Assembly: GCA_964194865.1 (NCBI GenBank)
Contig: CAXMOC010000275.1
Span: 1,482 to 65,481 of the forward strand
DNA from: an uncultured Opitutales bacterium
Lineage (GTDB): Bacteria; Myxococcota_A; UBA9160; SMWR01
Reading direction: 5' to 3'
DNA: 64,000 bases
Shown in pieces: positions 44,011 to 55,857 of the stretch. The notes below the pieces were generated by a model that saw only the letters and a program-made list of their open reading frames with translations, was not told the DNA's origin and searched no databases. A program made the position numbers and the translations under genes. The first letter of the stretch is position 1. Every line of letters starts with the position of its first letter.

Positions 44011-44235
44011 CAGAAGGCATGCAGCCTGCCGAAACGGGCACTTAGGCGCAACTCACCCGCGGGGATCAGCCAGTTGCTCAAGTAGCTCCCGGATTGGCCC
44101 GACGGTTAGGTCGCCCGCATTGCCGGGAGACTTCGACGCGCCGAGCAGGCTGCCCGGCGGGGTCGGAGTTGTCAGGGGCGGGCCGTCGGGCTAAGGATGA
44201 GAGCCCGATCTGTCCCCCCAGGGAGCTGGAGAACG

Positions 44236-47034
44236 GTGGGTAAAGCCCTCGTCATCACCGAGAAGCCCAGCGTCGCGCGCGACATTGCCAGCGCGATGGG
44301 CGGTTTCACTGACCTCGACGGTTATCAGGAGAGCGACGACTACCTGATCACATTCGCCGTCGGCCATCTCTTCGAGCTCCTCTCGCCAGAGGAGGTGGAC
44401 GAGAAATACAAGCGCTGGACGCTCGATGCTCTACCGATCCTGCCCGAGTCATTCCGGCTGAAGCCAAAGAAGGGGCAGAGCGAGCGGATCGACACGATTC
44501 GGCAGCTGCTGCAGCGAGACGACGTCGAAGAGATCGTCAACGCCTGCGACGCCGGGCGAGAAGGAGAGCTGATCTTCCGCGAGATCGTCGATTCGCTCGA
44601 TTGCGACAAGCCCGTGCGGCGCCTGTGGCTCCAGTCGATGACCACGAAGGCAATTCGACAGGGCTTCGAGAGCTTGCTCCCCGGCTCCGAGCTCGACGGT
44701 TTGGCTGCTTCCGCGGCCTGTCGCGCCCAATCGGATTGGATGATTGGGATGAACGCGACGCGCGCGCTCACCAAGCGGCTCAAGAGCCGCAAGGAGAAGA
44801 CCGCCTGGTCGGCGGGGCGCGTGCAAACGCCTACGCTTGCGATGCTCGTCGACCGCGAGTTCGAGATTCTCGCCCATAACCCTCGCCCCTTCTGGAAAGT
44901 CGTCGCCGACTTCGATCACGCCGGACAGACCTACCAGGCGACCTGGTTCGATTCTCAATTCAGCGCTTCCGCTGATGCAGAGCTCAAGGACGACCGAATC
45001 TTCGACGAAGCGCGCGCGACGGCGATCGTGGCGTCCGTGGTCGGTCGAAGCGGTTTGGCGTCGGAGACGCGCCGGCCTTCACGCGAGTCGGCTCCGACGC
45101 TGTTCAACCTGACGAGTCTCCAGCGCGAGGGCAACCGGCGCTTCGGCTGGTCCGCCCGCCGCACCTTGAGCGCCGCTCAGCGCTGCTACGAGCGCCACAA
45201 GATCCTGACCTATCCGCGAACGGACTCACGCTGTCTGCCGAACGACTACCGCGAAGTGGTGGAGCAGACTTTGGTGAGCCTGGGTGATGGAGCCGACCAT
45301 CCGGGCGAAGGGTTCGCCGATTACGCAGCGGCCGCGCGGCATCTTCAACAGGCGGGTCTCGAAAACACCGGCCGGATCTTCGACGATTCGAAGGTTTCAG
45401 ATCACTTCGCGGTGATTCCGACCGGAACCCTGCCCGCGGCGCCCCTGACCGGGGACGACAAGCGACTCTTCGACCTCGTGATGCGTCGGTTTCTTGGCGC
45501 CTTCTATCCGCCCGCAGTCTGGGAGCGTGTCGAGCGGACGACGGAAGTCGACAACGAGAAGTTTCGCACCCGCGCCAGATCGCTCAAAGAGAAGGGCTGG
45601 CGCGCTGTTCTGCCGCCCTCGACGGAAGATCCAGAGGAGCTGCTTCCGGCGCTCCTCGAAGGGGAGAGCGACGCCGAAGGCGTTTCGGTGCGCAACCAGA
45701 GCGCCGAGCCCCAGGCCGACGAGACACGCCCCCCGGCCCGCATCACCGAGGCGCGGCTGCTGTCCCTGATGGAGAACGCCGGCAAGCTGATCGAGGACGA
45801 AGATCACGCCGCCGCCATCGACGAGAAGGGGATTGGCACTCCCGCCACTCGGGCCGACGTGATCGAGAACCTGATCGCCAAGGGCTACGTCGTGAGGCTG
45901 GCGAAGTCGCTGCGGCCGACGGTGAAGGGCATCCGGTTGATCGACACCCTGCACCGCATCGACATCGCCCGGCTGACGTCGCCCGAGCTGACTGGCGAAA
46001 TCGAGCATCGCCTGATCGAAGTCGAGCGGGGCGAGCGGCCCGCGGCGGACTTCATGAACGAGATCACCAGTTACGCCTGTGAGATCGTCGACAGGGCCAA
46101 GACCTTCGACTACGAAGATCTCTACGACACCAAGACGCCGCTGGGCAGCTGTCCGAGCTGCGGCAAACCGGTCTTCGAGCTGGCATGGTTCTATCGCTGC
46201 ACAGCCGAGCCGGACGTGGCGCGCGAAGACGACTGCCCGATGCGATTCTGGAAGGATACCGCCGGGCGTTACCTCGACAAACAATCCGTCGAGACGCTGC
46301 TGCGCGACGACAAGACCGGCACCCTCGACGGCTTCACCGCTCGCAACGGCCGAACCTACAAGGGCTTCATCGAGCTCGATCGAGAGGAATGGAAGTTGGT
46401 GGTGCGCTCCCTGGGATACAACGAAGGGGAGGGAGTGAGTGATCTGGTCGACTACGACGTCAATCCGGATCCGCTGGCGCGCTGCCCGTTCGAAGAGGAA
46501 TGCTCGGTGCTGGAGTCGCCCACCCAGTTCATCTGTGAACGGGAGCTCAAGGAAGACGACGCTACCGACGCGGAGGAGCGGCCCAAGAGCTGTGGCTTCG
46601 TCTTTCCGCGCACCGTCTGCAAGCGCGAGATCACGCGTGAAGAAGCCGAGGTGTACCTCGCCAACGGAAAGACCGATTTGTTGGAGGAGTTCACCTCACG
46701 CTTCGGTCGACCTTTCTCGGCCAACCTCGTGCTCAAGAAGAATGGGCGCCACGGCTTCGAGTTTCCGCCTCGCAAACCCCGTGCCGGGAAGACCGCTGGA
46801 AAGGGCGAGAAGGCCGCGCCGCGAAAGAAGTCGACCCGAAAGAAGAAAACAGCAGCGAAGTCGAGCACCAAGAAGACAACCCGGAAGAAGGCGAAGGCCG
46901 TGGCGGCGAAACCGAAGACCGCCAAAGGCAAGCCGGCCACGAGAAAGAAGGCCGCAGTGAAGAAGAAGGTTTCCAAGAAAGCTGCCGCTTCGCGCCGTTC
47001 GGCGCGCCCGAAGCCCGGATCCCCGCAGGAATAA
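44236..47034 (+). CDS. topB: DNA topoisomerase III with zinc-ribbon/C-terminal repeat region and Lys-rich tail
   Basis: GTG at 44236 (VGKALVITEKPSVARDIA). TOPRIM and type IA core (GHLFEL, DAGREGELIF, YPRTDSRCL). CPSCGKP zinc ribbon. Final ~85 aa are K/A/T-rich. Confidence 0.88.
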   Translation: MGKALVITEKPSVARDIASAMGGFTDLDGYQESDDYLITFAVGHLFELLSPEEVDEKYKRWTLDALPILPESFRLKPKKGQSERIDTIRQLLQRDDVEEIVNACDAGREGELIFREIVDSLDCDKPVRRLWLQSMTTKAIRQGFESLLPGSELDGLAASAACRAQSDWMIGMNATRALTKRLKSRKEKTAWSAGRVQTPTLAMLVDREFEILAHNPRPFWKVVADFDHAGQTYQATWFDSQFSASADAELKDDRIFDEARATAIVASVVGRSGLASETRRPSRESAPTLFNLTSLQREGNRRFGWSARRTLSAAQRCYERHKILTYPRTDSRCLPNDYREVVEQTLVSLGDGADHPGEGFADYAAAARHLQQAGLENTGRIFDDSKVSDHFAVIPTGTLPAAPLTGDDKRLFDLVMRRFLGAFYPPAVWERVERTTEVDNEKFRTRARSLKEKGWRAVLPPSTEDPEELLPALLEGESDAEGVSVRNQSAEPQADETRPPARITEARLLSLMENAGKLIEDEDHAAAIDEKGIGTPATRADVIENLIAKGYVVRLAKSLRPTVKGIRLIDTLHRIDIARLTSPELTGEIEHRLIEVERGERPAADFMNEITSYACEIVDRAKTFDYEDLYDTKTPLGSCPSCGKPVFELAWFYRCTAEPDVAREDDCPMRFWKDTAGRYLDKQSVETLLRDDKTGTLDGFTARNGRTYKGFIELDREEWKLVVRSLGYNEGEGVSDLVDYDVNPDPLARCPFEEECSVLESPTQFICERELKEDDATDAEERPKSCGFVFPRTVCKREITREEAEVYLANGKTDLLEEFTSRFGRPFSANLVLKKNGRHGFEFPPRKPRAGKTAGKGEKAAPRKKSTRKKKTAAKSSTKKTTRKKAKAVAAKPKTAKGKPATRKKAAVKKKVSKKAAASRRSARPKPGSPQE

Positions 47035-47230: not shown

Positions 47231-50200
47231 ATGGGGCGGAAGGCGGAGCGCCGAATCCGGGGGGCCGTGGCCTGTGCCGCGATGGTCGTCTTCGGGTTCG
47301 GACTATTGGCCCCGACCACTGCAACGGCGCTGGAGGCTTTCGACGGCCGCATCCAGGTACACGGTTTTGCCGAGATGCAGCTGCGCGCTCTCAACGAGAA
47401 GTTCTCCGAGCAGCTCGACCTGGCCCAGTGGTACAACGTCCTCAACGTCGAGCTCGAGTTCGACATCTTGCCCGACGGCTGGGGCCCGCTGGATCTACTG
47501 CAGGCCTACGTTCGCGTCGAGGGCCGCTACGACTGCATTTGGGAGAAAGGTTGCGGCATGTTCAACTCCGTCAACACCTACGGAGACGATGCCCAACGCT
47601 TGCCCGATCGGCTTACCGACGGCAGGACCCAGGATTACAGCGGCGTGCTGCAGGTGGGCCCAACTACCAGCGACAACCCCAGCAACCTCGTCCAGACCCT
47701 CAACGGTGAGCGCCTCGACGACGGCACCATTATCGAAGACCGCGGGGCGCTCGGGCTCTCCGGATTGAAAGAATTCAGAGGCGCGGACGACATCCCGAAC
47801 ACGGCGGACGATCCTTTCAAGTACGTGATGTCGGATTTCCTCGCCTACGCGTTCACCTCCACGGCGCACAGGGGACCCGACGGAGGCGGCGGTCAGAAGA
47901 GCGTCCTCGGACCCTGGCTGCCGAAGAACTTCATCGACTCCAACGCGGTGTTGCGCAACAAAGCCAATCCCTTCCGCGGCCGGACGACGCCGTCTCCCGG
48001 TGGCACCACGGACGGATTCATTCGCTGGCACACTGCCGATCCGCTGGTCAACGGGATCGATGGCGACGGCAATCCCGTGATGCCAGACCCCACCAACTTG
48101 GCGAACCCCTTCTTCCAGACTCCCGACCAATTTCCCACGGAGCTGCTCGAGTTCCTGCCGCCAGACCTGGTCTTCCCGGGAACGACGACATTTGGAACCT
48201 ATACGTTTCTAAGCTCACCATCTCCCGCTGGCGTACCGAAGGTCGTGGTTCTGACCGATCTGGCACTGAACGACGGAGTCCCCACAGAAGACGACACCCA
48301 AAGCGATGCGGCCCGGGGATTCACCGCATTCGGCGGCGACTACAGCGGCATCGTGGCCTGCGGAGAGCCGGGGGGCGAGCTTGCCGGAAACCAGACCGAC
48401 CCCGCGAACGCCGATGGTTGGCTCGGAGGTTGTCTACCCGGGGCGAACGTTCGGGTGGTTGGCGGGACTAGCGAGCTCCCCCTGCGCCCCGCACCGGATC
48501 TCAGCAACCTCGCGGAGTTCGACCCGACAGTGGCCCAGGGCCTCTACATCCCGAGCCGCGGCCTCGTCCACTACTTCGAGCACGGCGACTTCGACTCGCT
48601 CGACATGAACTTCCGCGAGTCCGAGCGTTCCTGGAACCGCGGCGCCAGCCAGCAGGACACCAAAGAGCTCAAGGAAGCCTATTTCGACATGGAGTTCTTC
48701 GACAGCCGGCTGTGGGTGCGCGTGGGCCTGCAGCAGATCGTCTGGGGCAAAACCGAGCTGTTCCGGACGACCGACCAGTTCAACCCCCAGGACCTCGCCT
48801 TGGCAACGATTCCCAGCCTCGAGGAGTCACGCATCGCGGTCAACTCGGCGCGCTTCATCTATTCGCTCTACGAGGTCGGTCCGCTCGAGGATGTCCGCCT
48901 CGAGTTTGCGGTCAACTTCGACCAGATGCAGCCCTCGGACCTCGGCGCCTGCGGGGAGCCCTACACGCCGGACATCGTCTGCGGACTGACCTTCGGGACC
49001 TTCGCACACGGCTTCTTCGGGCTGGGAGTGGCGGGGGTCAATCGTCCCTCCGATCCCTGGAAGGACCTCGGTGGGTTCGAGATCGGGGGCCGGATCGAAT
49101 GGCGCTGGGACCGCTTCAGCTTCGCCCTGACCGACTTCTACGGCTACGACGATTTGCCGAGCATCGAGCGGATCATGACCTTCGAGCGCAACGCTGACCT
49201 CGCGTCGGGCCGTCCGCTGATCACCCGCCTGAGCCCGGACAACCCTCGAGGCGACTGCGCGACGGACAGCGACGCGCTGTCGATGGCCAATGCGGGTGAT
49301 CCAGACTACCGCCTGTCCAAGGATCAGTACTCCGTAACGGCGTCGGGGATCGGCATCGACGGCGACTGTCTGGGGTTCGGCACACCCCTGACCGGGTCGG
49401 CCAGCAACAACGCACTGGAGTGGCATCACGCCAACCAGCAACTCTTCACCTGGGTGTGCGCGGTCAGCGTCGGCTTCAGCGCGGGCCTCGATCCGGGCGC
49501 CTGCGCGGCGACGCTGTTCAACTCGGAACAGGATCTCGTCAAGGGAGTCGTCCCGATCCCGTTCTCGGAGCTCGTGTCTCCGCTATTCGCCGGCGATTAT
49601 CGCCACAGCAAGATTTTCCAGACCATCACTGGCGCAATTGGTGAGAGTATCGACATCCCGTTTCCTGCGCTGGCGATCAATCGAGATGCCAACGATGGTT
49701 TCATCACCGCGATCTCCGGATCGGCCCTGGATTGCGACGACCCCCTGGGTACCCCCACGGGCGTGAGGGAACTGGGGTGTAACAACCTGCGCGCCAACGG
49801 TGGATTCAACCAGGGGCCGCGGCCCGGTACCATCGGATTCCAGCAGGGTGGAAACGTGGTCGCGAAACAGCTGCCGTGGCTCACCGACTTCCTCACATTG
49901 GACAGCACTCTCACCAACGAGCAGCGCGCACTGCTGGGCTGTGGCCCGTTCTTCGGAATCCGTTGCGACACCGCGGGGAACTTCTCGCTGAACGACTGTG
50001 ACATCAATCTTCCGGGCTGCGAGGTGCTCTCGAGCGATGACCCGGCATCCCTGACACCGGCGCAACGTCTGGCCATCGAGGAGCGCCAGGGCTTCTATCG
50101 CGACGTCTTTCCCGGCGCATACAACGCCATCGGCGGCATCGACCTGCTGAACATCGAGGGCAGCGTACTCGTCCAATCCTTCCCGGGATTCGAAGGGACG

Positions 50201-51784
50201 CCCGACGACTACATCACCACGAGCATGGCGCAGGCTCCGGGGACGATCCGTTTCGACGGCGGGCCGGTCTGCACGCGGTACGTTCCGGGCAAGGACATGC
50301 CGGTGAAGCTGCCGGGCTGTCGGGGCATCGACGACTACGTGGTCACGACGACCGAGGTGATCTTTACGTTCGAGGCGGGCTACGACCCGAGTGTCGACGG
50401 CTGTCTGTTGGCGCCGACGATCGGCACCCACGCTGTCGTCACCCTCGACTCGGATGGGAACGACATCACGGGCTCCCAGGGGATGATGTCGTGCTTCGGT
50501 CAGCTGACGCCGGGCCGGGGCGACTTCGTCAGGGTTCCCGGGTTCTTCCAGCCGTTCTATCCCACTACGACGAGGCCCTGCGACAACTTCGAATACGACG
50601 CCGACTGCATTCGGGAGGTTGAGGAGTACCTCGACAAGCGGAATTCGGACAGCGGTCTGGGCGACTACTCCAGGAACAGCTTCGTGCGGATTCAGAATGC
50701 CTCGACGCTCTACCACCCGCTGGCGGGCTGCAACACCGATGAAGAGATCGAGATGAAAAATGAGGCGGACCCCGACCGGGGCCCCAATTGCGAGTTCAAG
50801 CGGATTCCTGGCCTCGGCTTTCGTGACTTCGACGCGGAGTTCCTGGCCGGAACGGCGCAGATCTTTCAGAACGAGATGGCGGCGGTTTCGTGGAACTTCT
50901 TGATGTTCCTGGTGGCCGGTTCGGTTTGCAATCCCGACGAAGACGAATTCATCCTCAATGAAAGCAACAGGAAGCGCTATCCGACCGTCACAGACTGCTT
51001 GGCCGGGGATCAACCCCCCTGGACGCTGGGCCGGTGTTCGTTCAATCAGCCGCAGTTCTGCAGGGCTGTGAAGGCCTTCATGGGATTGGCTGGGGTCCAG
51101 CGCAACGTCGTGCGTGCTGGAGGTAATGGAACCTACGGCCGCCGGACGTTGCTGTGGCATAGCGGCGGCGAAATCGTGCTGAACTACACCAAGCGCAACG
51201 TCTTCGGCTTCTCGATGGACTTCGCCGAGGATCGCAGCAAATCAAACTGGGGTGTGGAGTTCACCTGGATCGAATCGATCCCCTTCTTCGACGCGAACGA
51301 ATTCGACAACTTCCACCATGTCGATACGTTCAACCTGACCGTGTCCGCCGACAGGCCGACCTTCATCAACTTCCTCAACGCGAATCGCACGTTCTTCTTC
51401 AACACCCAGTGGTTCTTCCAGTACATCGACGGCCACAACAGCGGGATGTCTTCGAACGGGCCCTTCAACGCTCTGTTCACGTTCGCGGTCATCACGGGCT
51501 ACTTCCAGGACCGATTGAATCCGTCCCTGATCACGATCTACGACTTCAATTCGCGTTCGGGAGGGGTGCTACCGTCGATCCAGTACCGTTTCACCGAGGC
51601 CTTCTCCGTTGCCTGGGGGATTGGGTTCTTCTACGGCCGCACCCAGCTGACCGACATGTCGGTCAACGGCTTCGGCTTCGGCAATCGGGCCGGTCAGAAC
51701 GCCAACAAGGACAGCACGGAACAGTTCATCTCCGCGGTGCGCAAGCGCGACGAGGTGTGGCTGAGGGTGCGCTGGACCTTCTAA
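47231..51784 (+). CDS. very large DUF1302-like outer-membrane protein with cysteine-rich insertions
   Basis: GAGGAGGGG SD and signal peptide. DUF1302-like blocks (LNVELEFD...RVEGRYDCIW; KEAYFDMEF..LWVRVGLQQIVWGKTELFR). C-terminal beta-signal ...VWLRVRWTF. Confidence 0.7.
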   Translation: MGRKAERRIRGAVACAAMVVFGFGLLAPTTATALEAFDGRIQVHGFAEMQLRALNEKFSEQLDLAQWYNVLNVELEFDILPDGWGPLDLLQAYVRVEGRYDCIWEKGCGMFNSVNTYGDDAQRLPDRLTDGRTQDYSGVLQVGPTTSDNPSNLVQTLNGERLDDGTIIEDRGALGLSGLKEFRGADDIPNTADDPFKYVMSDFLAYAFTSTAHRGPDGGGGQKSVLGPWLPKNFIDSNAVLRNKANPFRGRTTPSPGGTTDGFIRWHTADPLVNGIDGDGNPVMPDPTNLANPFFQTPDQFPTELLEFLPPDLVFPGTTTFGTYTFLSSPSPAGVPKVVVLTDLALNDGVPTEDDTQSDAARGFTAFGGDYSGIVACGEPGGELAGNQTDPANADGWLGGCLPGANVRVVGGTSELPLRPAPDLSNLAEFDPTVAQGLYIPSRGLVHYFEHGDFDSLDMNFRESERSWNRGASQQDTKELKEAYFDMEFFDSRLWVRVGLQQIVWGKTELFRTTDQFNPQDLALATIPSLEESRIAVNSARFIYSLYEVGPLEDVRLEFAVNFDQMQPSDLGACGEPYTPDIVCGLTFGTFAHGFFGLGVAGVNRPSDPWKDLGGFEIGGRIEWRWDRFSFALTDFYGYDDLPSIERIMTFERNADLASGRPLITRLSPDNPRGDCATDSDALSMANAGDPDYRLSKDQYSVTASGIGIDGDCLGFGTPLTGSASNNALEWHHANQQLFTWVCAVSVGFSAGLDPGACAATLFNSEQDLVKGVVPIPFSELVSPLFAGDYRHSKIFQTITGAIGESIDIPFPALAINRDANDGFITAISGSALDCDDPLGTPTGVRELGCNNLRANGGFNQGPRPGTIGFQQGGNVVAKQLPWLTDFLTLDSTLTNEQRALLGCGPFFGIRCDTAGNFSLNDCDINLPGCEVLSSDDPASLTPAQRLAIEERQGFYRDVFPGAYNAIGGIDLLNIEGSVLVQSFPGFEGTPDDYITTSMAQAPGTIRFDGGPVCTRYVPGKDMPVKLPGCRGIDDYVVTTTEVIFTFEAGYDPSVDGCLLAPTIGTHAVVTLDSDGNDITGSQGMMSCFGQLTPGRGDFVRVPGFFQPFYPTTTRPCDNFEYDADCIREVEEYLDKRNSDSGLGDYSRNSFVRIQNASTLYHPLAGCNTDEEIEMKNEADPDRGPNCEFKRIPGLGFRDFDAEFLAGTAQIFQNEMAAVSWNFLMFLVAGSVCNPDEDEFILNESNRKRYPTVTDCLAGDQPPWTLGRCSFNQPQFCRAVKAFMGLAGVQRNVVRAGGNGTYGRRTLLWHSGGEIVLNYTKRNVFGFSMDFAEDRSKSNWGVEFTWIESIPFFDANEFDNFHHVDTFNLTVSADRPTFINFLNANRTFFFNTQWFFQYIDGHNSGMSSNGPFNALFTFAVITGYFQDRLNPSLITIYDFNSRSGGVLPSIQYRFTEAFSVAWGIGFFYGRTQLTDMSVNGFGFGNRAGQNANKDSTEQFISAVRKRDEVWLRVRWTF

Positions 51785-51813: not shown

Positions 51814-53286
51814 TTAGTGGCCGCGTACCAGGGTGTCGGTGGTGGTCATCTTTCGCAGTGACTTGTTTGGCGGGGGGATCGACCTCACGTCAAAGGATTC
51901 CCTTCGCCAGCCGCTGCCACCGTCGGCAGCGTGGAAGTAGACTGCAGCGACCGGATCGAAGAGCTGGGCGCGCTGCTCCGCCAGGGGCCAGTTCGGATAG
52001 TCGACCACGTCCCCACTGAAGCGATGCACTGGGATCCCCACGTCGACGATCAGACCTCGCTTCCGCCGGGTAATCAGGTACAGCGGCAGGCTCGTCTGGT
52101 GGTCGACGTAGATCGTGATCGAGTCGAAGGCCAGTCCAGCCGTCTTGGCCGCCCCCTCGATCACCAGCGCGTAGCGGACCTCCCAGCGATCGCTTCCCAC
52201 CGACAAACCCGAGGCACCGAAGTTGCGGTCCGGTTCGTAGGGATAGCCCGAGCGGGTGGCATTGATCGGAGCCAGCACCTCCCGCTTGCCCAGCACACGC
52301 CACACATAGGCATTCGGGCGAAGTGAGAAGTCATTGAAGCCCGCCGGCAAATGTTCCGTGACGGCGGCGGAGAGTGCCGAGTTGGGGCTCACCGCTCCCG
52401 TCGGTACGAGCCCGTTGGAGCCCGTCGCGATGCTGCCGCCGCCCCAGTCGCCGCCAACTCGATAGCGCGGGGTGTACATGCCATCGACCCAGGCGGTTGC
52501 CGACCGCCGGACCTTTCTCATCGTGGGGACGTAGACGAAGGTGTTGTCGGGGTGTGAATAGCGTTGTTCGGCTTCGACTGGCCGCATCTGGCGCCAGGCG
52601 AGGTGGCGCGCTTCGAAGGGCTCGTCGAAGCTGCCTCCGCCGACCCAGACGTTCTCGTCGGATCCCGGGTAGCTGAACTCGGTGTCCGGCAGGTCGGCCC
52701 GGTGGCGGGTTCGAAGCTGGAAAAAATCTCCCGTGTAGGTCTGGGTTCCACCCATACGACTTGGCATGTCTGTGATGCGAAAATGACCGTGAGGGCCTGC
52801 TCCGCGGTTGCGCAGCTCGAGGTTCCAGGCCCACTTCACGCCGGCGGCCGGATCATCGGCCGCGATCGACTCGGGCGGAAACGGCATCCCGGCCACGTAG
52901 TCCCAGAGATTTCCCTCGTCGTCGACGCTGGTGCGGCCCGAAAACTGCGCGGTTGCCTCCGCGAAATAGCTGGGCACCGGGTAGCGACGGTGGCAGGGGC
53001 CGATCTCCATTCGCATGCCGTCGAAGAAGAATACGTTCCGATTGCGCCAGACCTCGGCGGGAATCAGGTCGCGCAGCATCACCAGGTCGGTGTAGGTGAG
53101 GAGCATCCCCTCGCGAATCAGTGAGGGCACCGCGTCTTCGGCGAGGCGATCGCCCGGACGTCCCCCGAGCGCAGGGCAGTCTCCCTCTTCGGGAAGTCCG
53201 GCGGCTGCGCGACCCGCGAGCAAGCAGACGGCCACAAGGAGCGCGGCCGATGCTGTGGGGCCCAACGTCGAGGGGGTGTGGTGCAC
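51814..53286 (-). CDS. DUF1329 family (LolA-like) periplasmic/outer-membrane-associated protein
   Basis: Signal peptide. GMPFPPE...GVKWAWNLELRNRG, FVYVPTMRKVRRS, YVWRVLGKREVLAPIN and DRWEVRYALVIEG match the DUF1329 pattern as I recall it. Confidence 0.7.
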   Translation of the reverse strand: MHHTPSTLGPTASAALLVAVCLLAGRAAAGLPEEGDCPALGGRPGDRLAEDAVPSLIREGMLLTYTDLVMLRDLIPAEVWRNRNVFFFDGMRMEIGPCHRRYPVPSYFAEATAQFSGRTSVDDEGNLWDYVAGMPFPPESIAADDPAAGVKWAWNLELRNRGAGPHGHFRITDMPSRMGGTQTYTGDFFQLRTRHRADLPDTEFSYPGSDENVWVGGGSFDEPFEARHLAWRQMRPVEAEQRYSHPDNTFVYVPTMRKVRRSATAWVDGMYTPRYRVGGDWGGGSIATGSNGLVPTGAVSPNSALSAAVTEHLPAGFNDFSLRPNAYVWRVLGKREVLAPINATRSGYPYEPDRNFGASGLSVGSDRWEVRYALVIEGAAKTAGLAFDSITIYVDHQTSLPLYLITRRKRGLIVDVGIPVHRFSGDVVDYPNWPLAEQRAQLFDPVAAVYFHAADGGSGWRRESFDVRSIPPPNKSLRKMTTTDTLVRGH

Positions 53287-53346
53287 GACGACCTCCGTGG
53301 GAGCGCCGCGGATTCTATCGTACCCTCGGATCGGGAGTGATTTGCG

Positions 53347-54276
53347 ATGGCGCGACGTTCCGTCGGATTCCCGCTAACGCTGGGATTCATCTTGGTCATC
53401 CTGGCCGCGGTACTCGCCGTCGCCTACTGGGTTCTGGTACTGGACGATGTCGGCCCGGTTGGCCCGGACAGCCTGACGGGGCTCGAGTGGGTACTGCTGG
53501 TGCTGGGCACCGCCTTTTTCGTCCTGATCATCGTGGGGCTGGGGTGGCTCTGCGCCTGGCTGGTGCGAGAGATGCGGCTGAATCAGCGTCAGCGCGCATT
53601 TCTGGATGCCGTCACTCACGAGATGAAGACGCCCCTCGCATCCCTGCGCCTCTACGTCGAGACCCTGGTGAGGCACGATCCAGAAAGCGAGCGGCGGCGC
53701 GAGTTTCTCGACCGCATGGCCGAGGATCTAGAGCGCCTCGATCGAACCGTGGACCAGGTTCTGGCAGCGGCCCGCGCAGAGGAACCCGGCCGCCGGGCCA
53801 AGCTCGAGCGGGTCGCTCTGCGCGACATCCTGGTGCCGTGCATCGACGAGATTCGGAACCGGCACGCTCTGCCCGCGGAAGCGGTTCACCTCGACACCAA
53901 CGAAAATCCGCTTGTGCGAGCCGATCCGGGAGAGCTTGCGGTGGTGTTTCGCAACCTGCTCGAGAACGCTGTGAAGTACTCCGAGGCGCCCGTCGATGTC
54001 GGGGTTGCCATTGCGGGCCACCACGATGGGCGTGTTTCGGTGGACATCTCCGACCGCGGCATCGGGATTCCGGCGGGCGAGCTGCGGAAGATCTTCCAGC
54101 GCTTCCACCGCGCGGGTCGCGACGTGCAGCGGACCGCTGCGGGCCTCGGCCTCGGCTTGTTCATCGTCAGGAATCTGGTTCGCCGGCAGGGCGGGCGGGT
54201 GGTTGCGCGCAGCGCGGGCTGGGGCGAGGGCAGTCGATTTGTCGTGACTCTGCGCGCAGCTGGTCCGGCGTTGTAG
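53347..54276 (+). CDS. sensor histidine kinase (two TM helices, no extracytoplasmic or HAMP/PAS domain)
   Basis: H-box THEMKTPL, N-box NLLENAVKYS, G1 DRGIGIP, G2 GLGLGLF. Confidence 0.85.
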   Translation: MARRSVGFPLTLGFILVILAAVLAVAYWVLVLDDVGPVGPDSLTGLEWVLLVLGTAFFVLIIVGLGWLCAWLVREMRLNQRQRAFLDAVTHEMKTPLASLRLYVETLVRHDPESERRREFLDRMAEDLERLDRTVDQVLAAARAEEPGRRAKLERVALRDILVPCIDEIRNRHALPAEAVHLDTNENPLVRADPGELAVVFRNLLENAVKYSEAPVDVGVAIAGHHDGRVSVDISDRGIGIPAGELRKIFQRFHRAGRDVQRTAAGLGLGLFIVRNLVRRQGGRVVARSAGWGEGSRFVVTLRAAGPAL

Positions 54277-54290
54277 GGGAATTCGTCGAC

Positions 54291-54992
54291 GTGTCCCGGA
54301 TCCTGATCGTGGAAGACGAGTCCCACCTGGCAGAGGGGCTGCGTTTCAATCTCGAGGCCGAGGGTCACCAGGTGGAGATCGCCGCGGACGGTCCCTCTGC
54401 CGAGCGAGCACTCGTCGACGCAGACCAACCTTTCGGCCTGGTGATCCTCGACCTGATGCTACCGGGCATGAGCGGATCCGAGGTGGCGCGCCGGGCCCGC
54501 GCCGCCGGAAACTTCGTACCGATCTTGATCCTTACGGCCAAGGATGCTGCTGAAGATCTGATCCGCGGCATCGAGGACGGTGCCGACGACTATCTGACGA
54601 AGCCTTTCCATCTCGACGAGCTGTTGGTGCGTGTCCGCGGCCTGCTCCGGCGTCGCCGCTGGGACGGGGTAGCGCCCGATACCGGATCGCTCCGGAGCTA
54701 CAAGATCGGCGACGTCGAGGTTCACTTCGACCGCTTCGAGTTGGAGACGCCGCGCGGATCGATCCAGCTGACTACTCGCGAGATGGGTCTGTTGCGTGCG
54801 CTGATCGAGCACGAGGGCGAGGCCGTCACGCGGGGCCATCTGCTCGAGGACGTGTGGGGGCTGCGTCCCGAGACGAAGACCCGGGTCGTCGATAGCTTCA
54901 TCGTTCGCCTCAGGCGTTACATCGAACCAGACCCTTCTGATCCTCAGCACATCGTTTCAGTCCGAGGCCACGGCTACCGATTGAACCGCTAG
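54291..54992 (+). CDS. OmpR-family response regulator
   Basis: GTG at 54291. ILIVEDE, DLMLPGMSG, LTAKD, TKPF. Winged-helix C-terminus VSVRGHGYRL. Confidence 0.9.
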   Translation: MSRILIVEDESHLAEGLRFNLEAEGHQVEIAADGPSAERALVDADQPFGLVILDLMLPGMSGSEVARRARAAGNFVPILILTAKDAAEDLIRGIEDGADDYLTKPFHLDELLVRVRGLLRRRRWDGVAPDTGSLRSYKIGDVEVHFDRFELETPRGSIQLTTREMGLLRALIEHEGEAVTRGHLLEDVWGLRPETKTRVVDSFIVRLRRYIEPDPSDPQHIVSVRGHGYRLNR

Positions 54993-55095
54993 CTCCCCCG
55001 GGCGCACCGGTTTCGCCCGCCGGGCGGTGTTCAGATTGGAGCTGTCTTTTCAACTCCGGGCGTGCCACCCTCCAACGGTGACCGATCCGCTGCTC

Positions 55096-55857
55096 ATGCG
55101 CGTCCAGCCCGCGCTTCGGGATGCCCCCCTGGTGTTGGCATTTACCGGTTGGAATGACGCTGGCGAAGCCGCGACCAGCGCCGTTCATTTCATCGAGGAT
55201 GCGATCTGTGCCGTGCCACTCGCCGACATCGACGGTGAGGAGTTCCTGGATTTCACCGTCGCGCGTCCCACGGTTCGCTTCGAACCGGGTCGCGGCCGGG
55301 TCATCGATTGGCCCAACACCGAGTTTCGTTACGGCTCCGTCGACTCCTCTCGCGAGCTCGTGATCGGGATTGGCCCCGAGCCGCATCTTCGCTGGCGCCG
55401 CTTCGGCGAGCTGATCGCCGGTTTCGTGCAGCGACTGGGAATTCAGCGGGTCGTGCTGCTCGGTGCGTACGTCGCAGACCTCGTCTACTCGCTACCAGTG
55501 ACGGTCAGCGGCTTCTCGACGGCCCCGGAGCCGCTGGACGCATTGGGGGTGTTGCCGACGGGATATCAGGGGCCCACTGGAATCGTCGGAGTGCTGGCGG
55601 ACCGTCTCGCGCAGGACGGCATCGAGGTTACGAGCTTCTGGGCGGGCCTACCGCACTACATCACCGTCTCCCCGAACCCTCGAGGAGCGCTCGCGCTAGT
55701 GCAGAAATTGACGGACTACCTCGGTATCAAGCTCGACGACGCTCCGCTGCGTCGTGAGGCAGCGCGCTACGAGCAGAGGATTTCCGAGCTGGTTGCCGGG
55801 GATCCGGATCTCAACGAGTACGTTCGCCAGCTGAAGCGGCGCGAGTTCGCCCAGTAG
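55096..55857 (+). CDS. PAC2 (proteasome assembly chaperone 2-like) family protein
   Basis: LRDAPLVLAFTGWNDAGEAATSAV N-terminal pattern. The start could also be the GTG at 55078. Confidence 0.7.
   Translation: MRVQPALRDAPLVLAFTGWNDAGEAATSAVHFIEDAICAVPLADIDGEEFLDFTVARPTVRFEPGRGRVIDWPNTEFRYGSVDSSRELVIGIGPEPHLRWRRFGELIAGFVQRLGIQRVVLLGAYVADLVYSLPVTVSGFSTAPEPLDALGVLPTGYQGPTGIVGVLADRLAQDGIEVTSFWAGLPHYITVSPNPRGALALVQKLTDYLGIKLDDAPLRREAARYEQRISELVAGDPDLNEYVRQLKRREFAQ

What the first reader, a model, noticed from the sequence alone, without database searches (positions are those of the whole stretch)
47231..51784. DUF1302-like outer-membrane protein expanded to 1517 aa by cysteine-rich insertions
Typical DUF1302 proteins are, as far as I recall, roughly a third to a half of this size. 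This ORF keeps DUF1302-like blocks near the N-terminus and at about residue 480 (LWVRVGLQQIVWGKTELFRTTDQFNPQDL), and ends in a classical beta-barrel signal (LRVRWTF). In between it carries hundreds of extra residues. By my eye count the protein has about 28 cysteines outside the signal peptide, mostly in closely spaced pairs (for example YDCIWEKGC, LGCGPFFGIRCDTAGNFSLNDCDINLPGC, RPCDNFEYDADC). That pattern implies disulfide-stapled extracellular or periplasmic domains grafted onto barrel loops. The function of the family itself is unknown.
Basis: partly seen in the sequence, partly recalled or inferred. Interest (0 to 1): 0.6.

Follow-up and report, generated by a model that had tools for sequence, protein, structure and literature searches.

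The report
Giant disulfide-capped DUF1302 outer-membrane barrel
This gene encodes an outer-membrane barrel protein of the poorly understood DUF1302 family that is about 2.5 times the usual size because two of its loops have grown into a roughly 1,000-residue, disulfide-stapled domain of no known fold; the design is real, typical of one uncultured class of Myxococcota, absent from the 28 papers that mention DUF1302 or DUF1329, and of untested function.

Summary

It is not a fusion artefact. There are 634 homologues at E<=1e-3, and the full-length ones listed are 38-62% identical. The gene sits in a conserved slot: topA -> 1-4 giant genes -> convergent DUF1329 -> sensor-less histidine kinase -> response regulator.

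AlphaFold2 of a complete 1115-aa relative (pLDDT 82.7, pTM 0.85), and of residues 318-1517 of the window protein, gives 18 long strands. These are interrupted after strand 3 (residues 102-479) and after strand 9 (651-1312). All 28 cysteines lie in loops, none in strands. They are gained and lost as neighbour pairs across the family.

The insertions match no Pfam family or PDB sequence, and no PDB fold was recovered for them. They occur only in this family, and the family is confined to one class of the phylum.

The likely role is inferred, not shown: the outer-membrane end of a DUF1302/DUF1329 route for hydrophobic molecules, with a surface cap. It is a new variant of a known kind, already met repeatedly in this scan.

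The parts
47231..47329 (+). Signal peptide (residues 1-33; basic n-region, hydrophobic core, ATA|LE cleavage motif). It contains the 29th cysteine, C15.
   Evidence: Read directly from the sequence. The RBS GAGGAGGGG lies just upstream of the ATG.
47351..47533 (+). Barrel strands b1-b3 (residues 41-55, 63-80, 87-101).
   Evidence: Transferred through alignment A5 from the full-length model of L089, where the strands are 36-50, 60-77 and 84-98. Weak collinear hhalign match of 92-101 to the canonical DUF1302 profile.
47534..48667 (+). Insertion 1 (residues 102-479, 378 aa) in the loop after strand 3. It holds Cys pairs 102/108 and 377/401. Residues 275-408 are specific to the long type, variable and of low confidence.
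   Evidence: The equivalent canonical loop is about 25 aa.
48653..48871 (+). DUF1302 signature block (residues 475-547): strands b4 and b5 plus the nearly invariant loop QQIVWGKTELFRTTDQFNPQDL.
   Evidence: Pfam PF06980, E=4.7e-11, 42.8 bits. hhalign to the canonical profile, probability 35-74%. Column conservation 0.88-0.96.
48668..49180 (+). Barrel strands b4-b9 (480-489, 494-501, 537-549, 552-562, 617-626, 629-639, plus a short extension at 644-650). Loop L4 (563-616) lies among them and carries Cys pair 574/584 and a helix.
   Evidence: DSSP of the window protein's own model and of the full-length relative.
49181..51166 (+). Insertion 2 (residues 651-1312, 662 aa) between strands b9 and b10. 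It holds 22 cysteines (11 pairs), is mostly coil and short helices, and has no Pfam or PDB-sequence match.
   Evidence: Searched alone it finds only 280 proteins in 1.84 billion representatives. The 150 listed, and the 6 short ones inspected, are family members or broken gene calls.
51167..51784 (+). C-terminal half of the barrel: a short extension at 1313-1318, strands b10-b18 (1321-1331 … 1507-1516), the terminal beta-signal LRVRWTF, and the stop codon.
   Evidence: pLDDT about 70-85. Foldseek hits are to OM barrels only.
51814..53286 (-). Convergent DUF1329 (LolA-like) partner gene, 29 bp from the barrel gene's stop. The true start may lie downstream of the GTG at 53286.
   Evidence: Pfam PF07044, E=2.3e-24. 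The same convergent arrangement occurs in 35 of 56 related loci.
53347..54276 (+). Histidine kinase with two TM helices, a 13-residue outer loop and no sensor domain. It is divergent from the DUF1329 gene.
   Evidence: Present after DUF1329 in 30 of 34 loci with enough flank.
54273..54992 (+). OmpR-type response regulator.
   Evidence: Pfam Response_reg plus Trans_reg_C.

Best explanation
The gene encodes a divergent DUF1302-type outer-membrane beta-barrel, most likely of 18 strands. Two of its loops have been enlarged: the loop after strand 3 and the loop between strands 9 and 10. Together they form about 1,040 residues of irregular, helix-and-coil structure pinned by up to 14 short-range disulfides. 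Of these, 2 pairs are in insertion 1, 1 in loop L4 and 11 in insertion 2. By strand parity and loop-length rules both insertions most likely sit on the cell surface as a cap over the barrel. The protein works with the convergently encoded periplasmic LolA-like DUF1329 protein. By analogy with canonical DUF1302/DUF1329 systems, the pair would form the outer-membrane end of a route that moves hydrophobic or lipidic molecules across the outer membrane. In that scheme the cap provides surface binding, gating or protection. The adjacent sensor-less kinase and OmpR-type regulator probably control or monitor the module. Shown here: the intact gene, the family, the barrel-plus-insertions architecture, the paired-cysteine pattern and the conserved gene neighbourhood. 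Inferred: the membrane side of insertion 2, actual disulfide formation, the physical complex with DUF1329, the substrate class and the direction of transport.
For: Intact ORF, signal peptide and beta-signal. Pfam DUF1302 above the cut-off. Full-length relative modelled at pLDDT 82.7 and pTM 0.85, with 18 long strands and two interruptions. The same strand pattern appears in the window protein's own model. Only OM barrels are recovered by Foldseek. With an 18-strand count every periplasmic turn is 2-14 residues and all long segments fall on the extracellular side. The two extra strands flanking insertion 2 are only 6-9 residues long, too short to span a membrane. Cysteines: 0 in strands and 28 in loops. 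48 of 50 relatives have an even count, and pairs 102/108, 377/401, 574/584 and 923/930 are always both present or both absent. Each segment specific to the long type carries its own cysteines. Conservation inside the insertions is as high as in the barrel. A convergent DUF1329 occurs in 35 of 56 loci, and the kinase in 30 of 34. Canonical DUF1302/DUF1329 are linked to hydrophobic compounds. AmeABCD deletion lowers monoterpene tolerance and raises Nile Red accumulation (PMC6394551). The genes show fitness phenotypes on fatty esters and Tween 20 (10.1101/2020.07.04.188060) and cofitness with BNR and RND genes (10.1101/072470). A DUF1302-DUF1329 complex was predicted with ipTM 0.84 (PMC13499233).
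Against: Sequence similarity to canonical DUF1302 is restricted to one motif block. hhalign finds nothing else at useful probability. Model coordinates and PAE could not be inspected, so a 20-strand barrel with a periplasmic insertion 2 is not excluded. The window protein's own model is mediocre (pLDDT 59.8), and residues 1-317 of the window protein were never folded directly. No BNR or HAE3-RND partner lies next to the gene. 20 of 56 related loci have no DUF1329 neighbour.
Confidence: 0.6

Rival explanations
1. Same barrel family, but the larger insertion (651-1312) hangs into the periplasm. The two short flanking strands would be true membrane strands, giving 20 strands, and the insertion would be a periplasmic scaffold that docks DUF1329 or reaches the inner membrane.
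For: Counting every DSSP strand gives 20, and parity from both termini then places insertion 2 on the periplasmic side. Disulfides also form in the periplasm. A domain inserted in a periplasmic turn has a precedent in the usher plug (own knowledge).
Against: The two extra strands are 6-9 residues long, too short to span the membrane. They are separated from b9 and b10 by only 2-4 residues, as expected for kinked extensions. DUF1302 barrels are reported as 18-stranded (PMC13499233; 10.64898/2026.03.07.710327, which also gives 16 elsewhere in its text). A 660-residue periplasmic turn would break the short-turn, long-loop rule that all other turns of the model obey. Insertion 1 is extracellular by parity, so the two insertions would lie on opposite faces.
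Confidence: 0.15
2. The barrel is mainly an anchor or receptor and the cap is the functional part. It could be a surface adhesin, a shield or a ligand sensor. In the sensing version the signal or ligand is handed to DUF1329 and on to the sensor-less histidine kinase, giving trans-envelope signalling rather than bulk transport.
For: The kinase has no sensor domain. It is linked to the DUF1329 gene by a 60-bp divergent spacer and is present in 30 of 34 loci. The family diversifies by tandem duplication (1-4 copies) and by loop accretion, as surface receptors often do. A functional analogue exists: PahS (OM receptor) -> PahP (periplasmic carrier) -> PahK (sensor-less kinase) in Cycloclasticus (PMC10570129).
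Against: PahS is a TonB-dependent receptor and PahP is not reported there as DUF1329, so this is analogy only. The insertions are strongly conserved (column identity 0.6-0.75 over long stretches), unlike typical fast-evolving adhesin tips. Two-component genes next to envelope genes commonly just regulate them.
Confidence: 0.2
3. The long ORF is an artefact: two genes fused by misassembly or frameshift, or a chance DUF1302 match in an unrelated secreted protein.
For: The Pfam match covers only 73 of 1517 residues. The genome is a fragmented MAG with 292 contigs and 3.5% contamination.
Against: Full-length homologues at 38-62% identity come from many independent assemblies, including closed chromosomes. 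N-terminal, middle and C-terminal strands are all conserved and fold into one barrel in a relative. The signature block is nearly invariant. The expected DUF1329 partner is adjacent.
Confidence: 0.01

Closest known systems
Canonical DUF1302 (PF06980) / DUF1329 (PF07044) pairs, for example AmeA/AmeB of Castellaniella defragrans (AmeABCD; PMC6394551), PP_0765/PP_0766 of Pseudomonas putida (10.1101/2020.07.04.188060), and Sama_1588/1589 of Shewanella amazonensis (10.1101/072470)
   Same: Pfam DUF1302 hit above the cut-off. The signature hairpin-plus-loop motif (…VxWG…NPxD…) sits at the same relative place. There is a signal peptide and a C-terminal beta-signal. A strand count of 18 is compatible. 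A DUF1329 LolA-like gene is directly adjacent.
   Different: About 2.5 times longer (1517 aa against about 600). There are two insertions of 378 and 662 aa. There are 28 cysteines against usually 0. No detectable sequence similarity exists outside the motif block. The partner gene is convergent rather than co-directional. No BNR (COG4447) or HAE3-RND gene lies in the locus; an intramembrane-type two-component system is there instead.
The window genome's own canonical pair (G000 contig C23: DUF1302 at 53802-55562 plus DUF1329 at 52422-53522)
   Same: Same two Pfam families in the same organism.
   Different: The canonical copy scores 404 bits over the whole profile and is about 590-640 aa long. 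The giant scores 36-43 bits over 78 profile positions. The giant is therefore a separate, anciently diverged subfamily and not a recent expansion of the local canonical gene.
18-stranded substrate channels AlgE and OprD/Occ, and general porins (structural neighbours)
   Same: Foldseek recovers only such barrels: OmpU, OmpK36, OmpC, PhoE, FadL and OccD2. Canonical DUF1302 models were reported closest to AlgE and an Acinetobacter Occ channel, with TM-score about 0.55 (PMC13499233).
   Different: Alignments cover only about 210-280 columns at 8-14% identity. None of these proteins carries comparable loop domains.
PahS-PahP-PahK/PahR cell-surface signalling for PAHs in Cycloclasticus (PMC10570129)
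   Same: Gene-set logic: an OM barrel with large extracellular loops, a periplasmic hydrophobic-ligand carrier and a sensor-less histidine kinase.
   Different: PahS is a 22-strand TonB-dependent receptor. No homology was shown or tested here. This is an analogy only.

Membership tests
DUF1302 (Pfam PF06980) | Match to the family HMM at or above Pfam's gathering score | tested here: met
   42.8 bits against a cut-off of 23.2, E=4.7e-11. 36.2 bits in the six-frame genome search. The short-type relative L089 scores 42.0 bits.
DUF1302 (Pfam PF06980) | Similarity along the whole domain (about 540 profile positions) | tested here: not met
   Only profile positions 141-218 align. Profile-profile hhalign against 40 canonical members aligns only 477-529 (probability 35-74%), plus a 10-residue collinear match at 92-101.
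DUF1302 (Pfam PF06980) | 18-stranded outer-membrane beta-barrel, as reported for the family in PMC13499233 | tested here: inconclusive
   The models give 18 long strands plus two 6-9-residue strands flanking insertion 2. Coordinates could not be inspected, so 18 against 20 rests on strand length and loop rules. Foldseek hits are OM barrels only.
DUF1302 (Pfam PF06980) | Adjacent DUF1329 (LolA-like) partner gene | tested here: met
   PF07044, E=2.3e-24, in the gene 29 bp downstream and convergent. Conserved in 35 of 56 related loci, plus 1 on the same strand.
AmeABCD-type four-gene cassette (DUF1302 + DUF1329 + COG4447 BNR propeller + HAE3 RND) | BNR-propeller and HAE3-RND genes in the same cluster | tested here: not met
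   The neighbours are topA, DUF1329, a kinase, a regulator and PAC2. The MMPL and PSII_BNR hits in the genome lie on other contigs.
Generic Gram-negative outer-membrane beta-barrel protein | Sec signal peptide, C-terminal aromatic beta-signal, and amphipathic antiparallel strands with short periplasmic turns | tested here: met
   Read from the sequence, DSSP of both models and Foldseek.
Disulfide-stabilised secreted domain | Even number of cysteines, conserved and co-varying as pairs | tested here: met
   28 Cys in the mature protein. 48 of 50 relatives have an even number. There are no singletons for four variable pairs. Actual bond formation cannot be tested with these tools.

The most novel reading that the evidence does not exclude
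The module is a trans-envelope sensing relay rather than a transporter. The surface cap captures an external hydrophobic or particulate cue and passes a ligand through the barrel to the LolA-like DUF1329 carrier. That carrier then activates the sensor-less histidine kinase. This would be a non-TonB form of cell-surface signalling, diversified by tandem barrel paralogues that share one carrier and one kinase.
Probability: 0.12. Interest if true: 0.75.

Novelty: new variant of a known kind. Interest (0 to 1): 0.45.

Why it matters
DUF1302/DUF1329 is a widespread envelope system with no solved structure and no agreed function. Proposals include export of hydrophobic compounds or of an envelope component, and an esterase-linked role. 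This subfamily adds about 1,000 conserved, disulfide-pinned residues to the barrel's loops. It is clade-specific, often multi-copy, and genetically tied to a LolA-like carrier and a sensor-less two-component system.

If the cap is on the surface, it would be one of the largest loop-borne ectodomains on a bacterial barrel. It would also be a fold family without known relatives. That makes it useful for structure determination, for understanding how uncultured marine and sediment Myxococcota interact with hydrophobic or particulate substrates, and as a natural handle on what DUF1302 barrels conduct.

The gene itself is a typical member of this subfamily, which the scan has already met in at least six other genomes. 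The value of this particular window is therefore confirmatory.

Tried and rejected
1. NCBIfam scan of the protein: no family.
2. PDB sequence search with a 50-sequence family profile: 0 hits at E<=1.
3. hhalign of the family profile against two canonical DUF1302 proteins of the same genome and against a 40-member canonical profile, whole and in three pieces: only the motif block aligns. Insertion points therefore could not be mapped onto canonical loops by sequence.
4. Internal-repeat test of seven insertion segments (hhalign all-against-all, plus self-BLAST): none. The insertions are not built from a repeated module.
5. Search for stand-alone versions of insertion 2: the short hits inspected are broken or fragmentary gene calls of family members.
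6. AupA/AupB as relatives: the search found the alkane-uptake papers but gave no evidence that they are DUF1302/DUF1329, so this was not pursued.
7. Promoter and terminator scan around the gene: no sigma-70-like site, and terminator-like sites are no more frequent than in shuffles.
8. Looking for model coordinates in the Python box to settle the topology: not available.


Full report
**Observation**

window:47231-51784(+) is a single open frame of 1517 codons. A strong Shine-Dalgarno sequence precedes it. It starts with a typical Sec signal peptide (residues 1-33, ATA|LE) and ends in the outer-membrane beta-signal …LRVRWTF.

The protein has 29 cysteines, 28 of them outside the signal peptide.

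Pfam finds DUF1302 (PF06980) at 42.8 bits, above the 23.2-bit cut-off, but only over residues 475-547, which match profile positions 141-218 of 541. NCBIfam finds nothing.

Canonical DUF1302 proteins collected with the genome's own canonical copy have a median length of 597 aa, and 33 of 40 have no cysteine after the first 30 residues. The protein is therefore about 2.5 times the normal length and very unusual in cysteine content.

**Not an artefact**

A word-indexed search of 5.8 billion proteins gave 634 relatives at E<=1e-3. The full-length ones among the 120 listed are 1397-1835 aa long and 38-62% identical. Most carry the same weak DUF1302 Pfam mark. The few that a source names are called Myxococcota, Myxococcales or Deltaproteobacteria MAG proteins.

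A scan of one genome per species found 222 relatives, kept as 76 loci, all from uncultured MAGs.

In a sample of 301 genomes of the phylum, 46 have the family. All 46 belong to the window's own class, and none of the other roughly 240 genomes has it. Canonical DUF1302 is rare in the phylum, with strong hits in 4 of 151 genomes.

**Architecture**

- *Job 1, residues 318-1517 of the window protein with 46 homologues.* This gave pLDDT 59.8 and pTM 0.62.
  - Strands lie at 483-489, 494-501, 537-545, 555-562, 617-626, 629-639 and 644-652.
  - A 660-residue helix-and-coil region follows, with confident sub-domains (for example pLDDT 80-95 at 977-1087).
  - Ten more strands run from 1311 to 1515.
- *Job 2, a complete 1115-aa family member.* This is L089:5998-9342 from a closed MAG chromosome, and it has the same convergent DUF1329 neighbour. 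It gave pLDDT 82.7 and pTM 0.85.
  - It has three N-terminal strands, then a 238-aa non-barrel region.
  - Six further strands follow, with the signature loop and a 54-aa loop between them.
  - A roughly 400-aa non-barrel region follows, then nine C-terminal strands.
  - That makes 18 long strands, plus two 6-7-residue strands flanking the second interruption.

Transferred through alignment A5, the window protein reads as follows:

| Element | Residues |
|---|---|
| Signal peptide | 1-33 |
| b1-b3 | 41-101 |
| Insertion 1 | 102-479 |
| b4-b5 | 480-501 |
| Signature loop L3 | 502-536 |
| b6-b7 | 537-562 |
| Loop L4 | 563-616 |
| b8-b9 | 617-639 (+644-650) |
| Insertion 2 | 651-1312 |
| b10-b18 | (1313-1318+) 1321-1516 |

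Foldseek against the PDB returned only outer-membrane barrels. For the full-length model there were 22 hits at E<=1e-3, including OmpU, OmpK36, OmpC, PhoE, FadL and OccD2. For the partial model the hits were weaker but of the same kind. No PDB fold was recovered for the insertions in these whole-model searches.

The insertions also have no Pfam hit at E<=1, no PDB sequence relative and no internal repeats.

Insertion 2 searched alone against 1.84 billion representative proteins finds only 280 sequences. The 150 listed look like family members or pieces of them, and the six short hits I read are broken gene calls. The inserted domains are thus specific to this family.

**Which side of the membrane**

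With the N-terminus periplasmic, insertion 1 follows an odd strand and is extracellular by parity.

For insertion 2 the answer depends on the two short flanking strands: 644-650/652 and 1311/1313-1318 in the window protein, and 501-507 and 909-914 in L089. They could be membrane strands, giving 20 strands and a periplasmic insertion. Or they could be kinked upward extensions of b9 and b10, giving 18 strands and an extracellular insertion.

I favour the second reading, at about 0.8, for these reasons:
- The two strands are only 6-9 residues long.
- They are separated from b9 and b10 by only 2-4 residues.
- With 18 strands every periplasmic turn is 2-14 residues, and every long segment is extracellular.
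- The family is reported as 18-stranded (PMC13499233).

**Cysteines**

None of the 28 lies in a predicted strand. Four are in insertion 1, two in L4 and 22 in insertion 2.

Across 50 full-length relatives, 48 have an even number of cysteines in the mature protein. Sequence-neighbour pairs are either both present or both absent:

| Pair | Both present | Both absent | One only |
|---|---|---|---|
| 102/108 | 21 | 29 | 0 |
| 377/401 | 48 | 2 | 0 |
| 574/584 | 48 | 2 | 0 |
| 923/930 | 9 | 41 | 0 |

Six further pairs are present in all 50: 676/713, 743/758, 1014/1030, 1058/1088, 1167/1187 and 1269/1277. Pair 904/912 is present in 49.

This is the pattern expected of up to 14 short-range disulfides. 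Bond formation itself is not shown.

**Family structure and neighbourhood**

The gene sits in a slot that is conserved across the class: hisS, an FG-GAP protein, topA, then the giant barrel gene(s), then a convergent DUF1329 gene, then a divergent histidine kinase and OmpR-type regulator, then PAC2.

- Among 56 related loci with enough downstream sequence, 35 have the convergent DUF1329, one has it on the same strand, and 20 have none. Most of those 20 are 'orphan' short-type copies.
- The kinase follows in 30 of 34 loci with enough flank.
- In some lineages the slot holds two to four tandem barrel genes that share one DUF1329.

There are two size classes. Short types are about 920-1270 aa in the mature protein and long types about 1300-1825 aa.

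A maximum-likelihood tree on 979 shared columns puts 21 long-type proteins in one clade with SH-aLRT 100. The window protein lies inside a six-member sub-clade. Size class needs only 3 changes on the tree, against 19.4 in shuffles.

Compared with the short type, the window protein has extra segments at 275-408, 678-706, 916-968, 1062-1159 and 1167-1209, most of them with their own cysteines. The long type thus arose by stepwise loop accretion.

The kinase has two transmembrane helices, a 13-residue outer loop and no sensor domain.

**How it most likely works**

What is known of the canonical system all points to hydrophobic molecules and the envelope:
- AmeABCD (DUF1302 AmeA, DUF1329 AmeB, a COG4447 propeller and an HAE3 RND pump) supports monoterpene tolerance and Nile Red efflux (PMC6394551).
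- P. putida PP_0765 and PP_0766 have fitness phenotypes on fatty esters and Tween 20 (10.1101/2020.07.04.188060).
- Several bacteria show cofitness of DUF1302/DUF1329 with BNR and RND genes, read as export of an envelope component (10.1101/072470).
- A DUF1302-DUF1329 complex was predicted with ipTM 0.84, and the family has no solved structure (PMC13499233).

I therefore read the window's gene pair as the outer-membrane end of such a route. The nearly invariant signature loop would lie inside the barrel. The LolA-like DUF1329 would act as periplasmic carrier or plug. The conserved disulfide-pinned cap would bind, gate or shield at the surface. The two-component system would act as its regulator.

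The architecture is well supported (about 0.8). The function is an inference (about 0.35).

Rivals:
- a periplasmic insertion 2 (0.15);
- a receptor, adhesin or signalling role, by analogy with PahS-PahP-PahK (PMC10570129) (0.2);
- an artefact (0.01).

**Comparison and novelty**

By Pfam's own criterion the protein is a DUF1302 member, and some relatives are already auto-named 'DUF1302 family protein'. However, similarity is confined to one motif block, the partner gene is convergent, and the BNR and RND genes of the AmeABCD-type cassette are absent from the locus.

None of the 28 papers that mention DUF1302 or DUF1329 describes giant, cysteine-rich members.

Earlier reports of this scan describe the same family in at least six other genomes, with the same reading. 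Those are leads, not evidence, but my independent tests agree with them. The one exception is the claim that the inserted domain also occurs without a barrel. The short hits I inspected look like fragments.

**Verdict**

This is a real, intact and typical member of an undescribed giant subfamily of a known family: a new variant of a known kind. Interest is moderate.

Noticed in passing
G000 contig C259:6500-8498 (locus L019): An 8.5-kb contig of the same MAG ends with the C-terminus of a topoisomerase, including a Lys-rich tail. After it comes the first roughly 230 residues of a second giant DUF1302-type protein, which runs off the contig end. This repeats the topA -> barrel order of the window. 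It is either a second copy of the locus or a co-binned related strain (the MAG has 3.5% contamination).
   Followed up: partly
window 44197-47034 (+): The topoisomerase upstream (Toprim + Topoisom_bac + Toprim_Crpt repeats) is always the left neighbour of the barrel slot. In the C259 copy it ends in a long Lys/Ala-rich tail.
   Followed up: no
L099 (JGI Ga0256668_1000226), L100, L062, L072, L076: In sister lineages the same slot holds two to four tandem short-type barrel paralogues (for example 1144 + 1216 + 1022 aa) ahead of a single convergent DUF1329. The gene nearest DUF1329 belongs to a distinct, shortest clade (920-1015 aa).
   Followed up: yes
P0150: A 1022-aa protein carries both PF07044 (DUF1329) and PF06980 (DUF1302). 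It is either a natural fusion of the canonical pair or a merged gene call.
   Followed up: no
L016-L018 (MAG chromosome OZ245002.1, about 5.499-5.503 Mb): An orphan short-type copy (1145-aa ORF) lies between pyruvate kinase and a convergent wax-ester synthase/DGAT gene. That genome has at least three family copies.
   Followed up: partly
G000 contigs C174 and C255: The genome carries MMPL/RND-type hits on 15 contigs. On contig C174 one lies about 450 bp from a weak DUF1329-like (LolA-like) gene, and contig C255 carries both kinds about 14 kb apart. This suggests further RND plus LolA-like envelope modules besides the one studied.
   Followed up: no
window 51345-51386 (residues 1372-1385 of the barrel protein): The turn between strands b12 and b13, periplasmic by parity, carries a run of invariant residues (S-x-D-R-P-T-F…N…R). 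It is as conserved as the signature loop and is a candidate docking site for the DUF1329 partner.
   Followed up: no
window 53287-53346: Only 60 bp separate the divergent starts of the DUF1329 ORF and the histidine kinase, so the two share one short control region.
   Followed up: no
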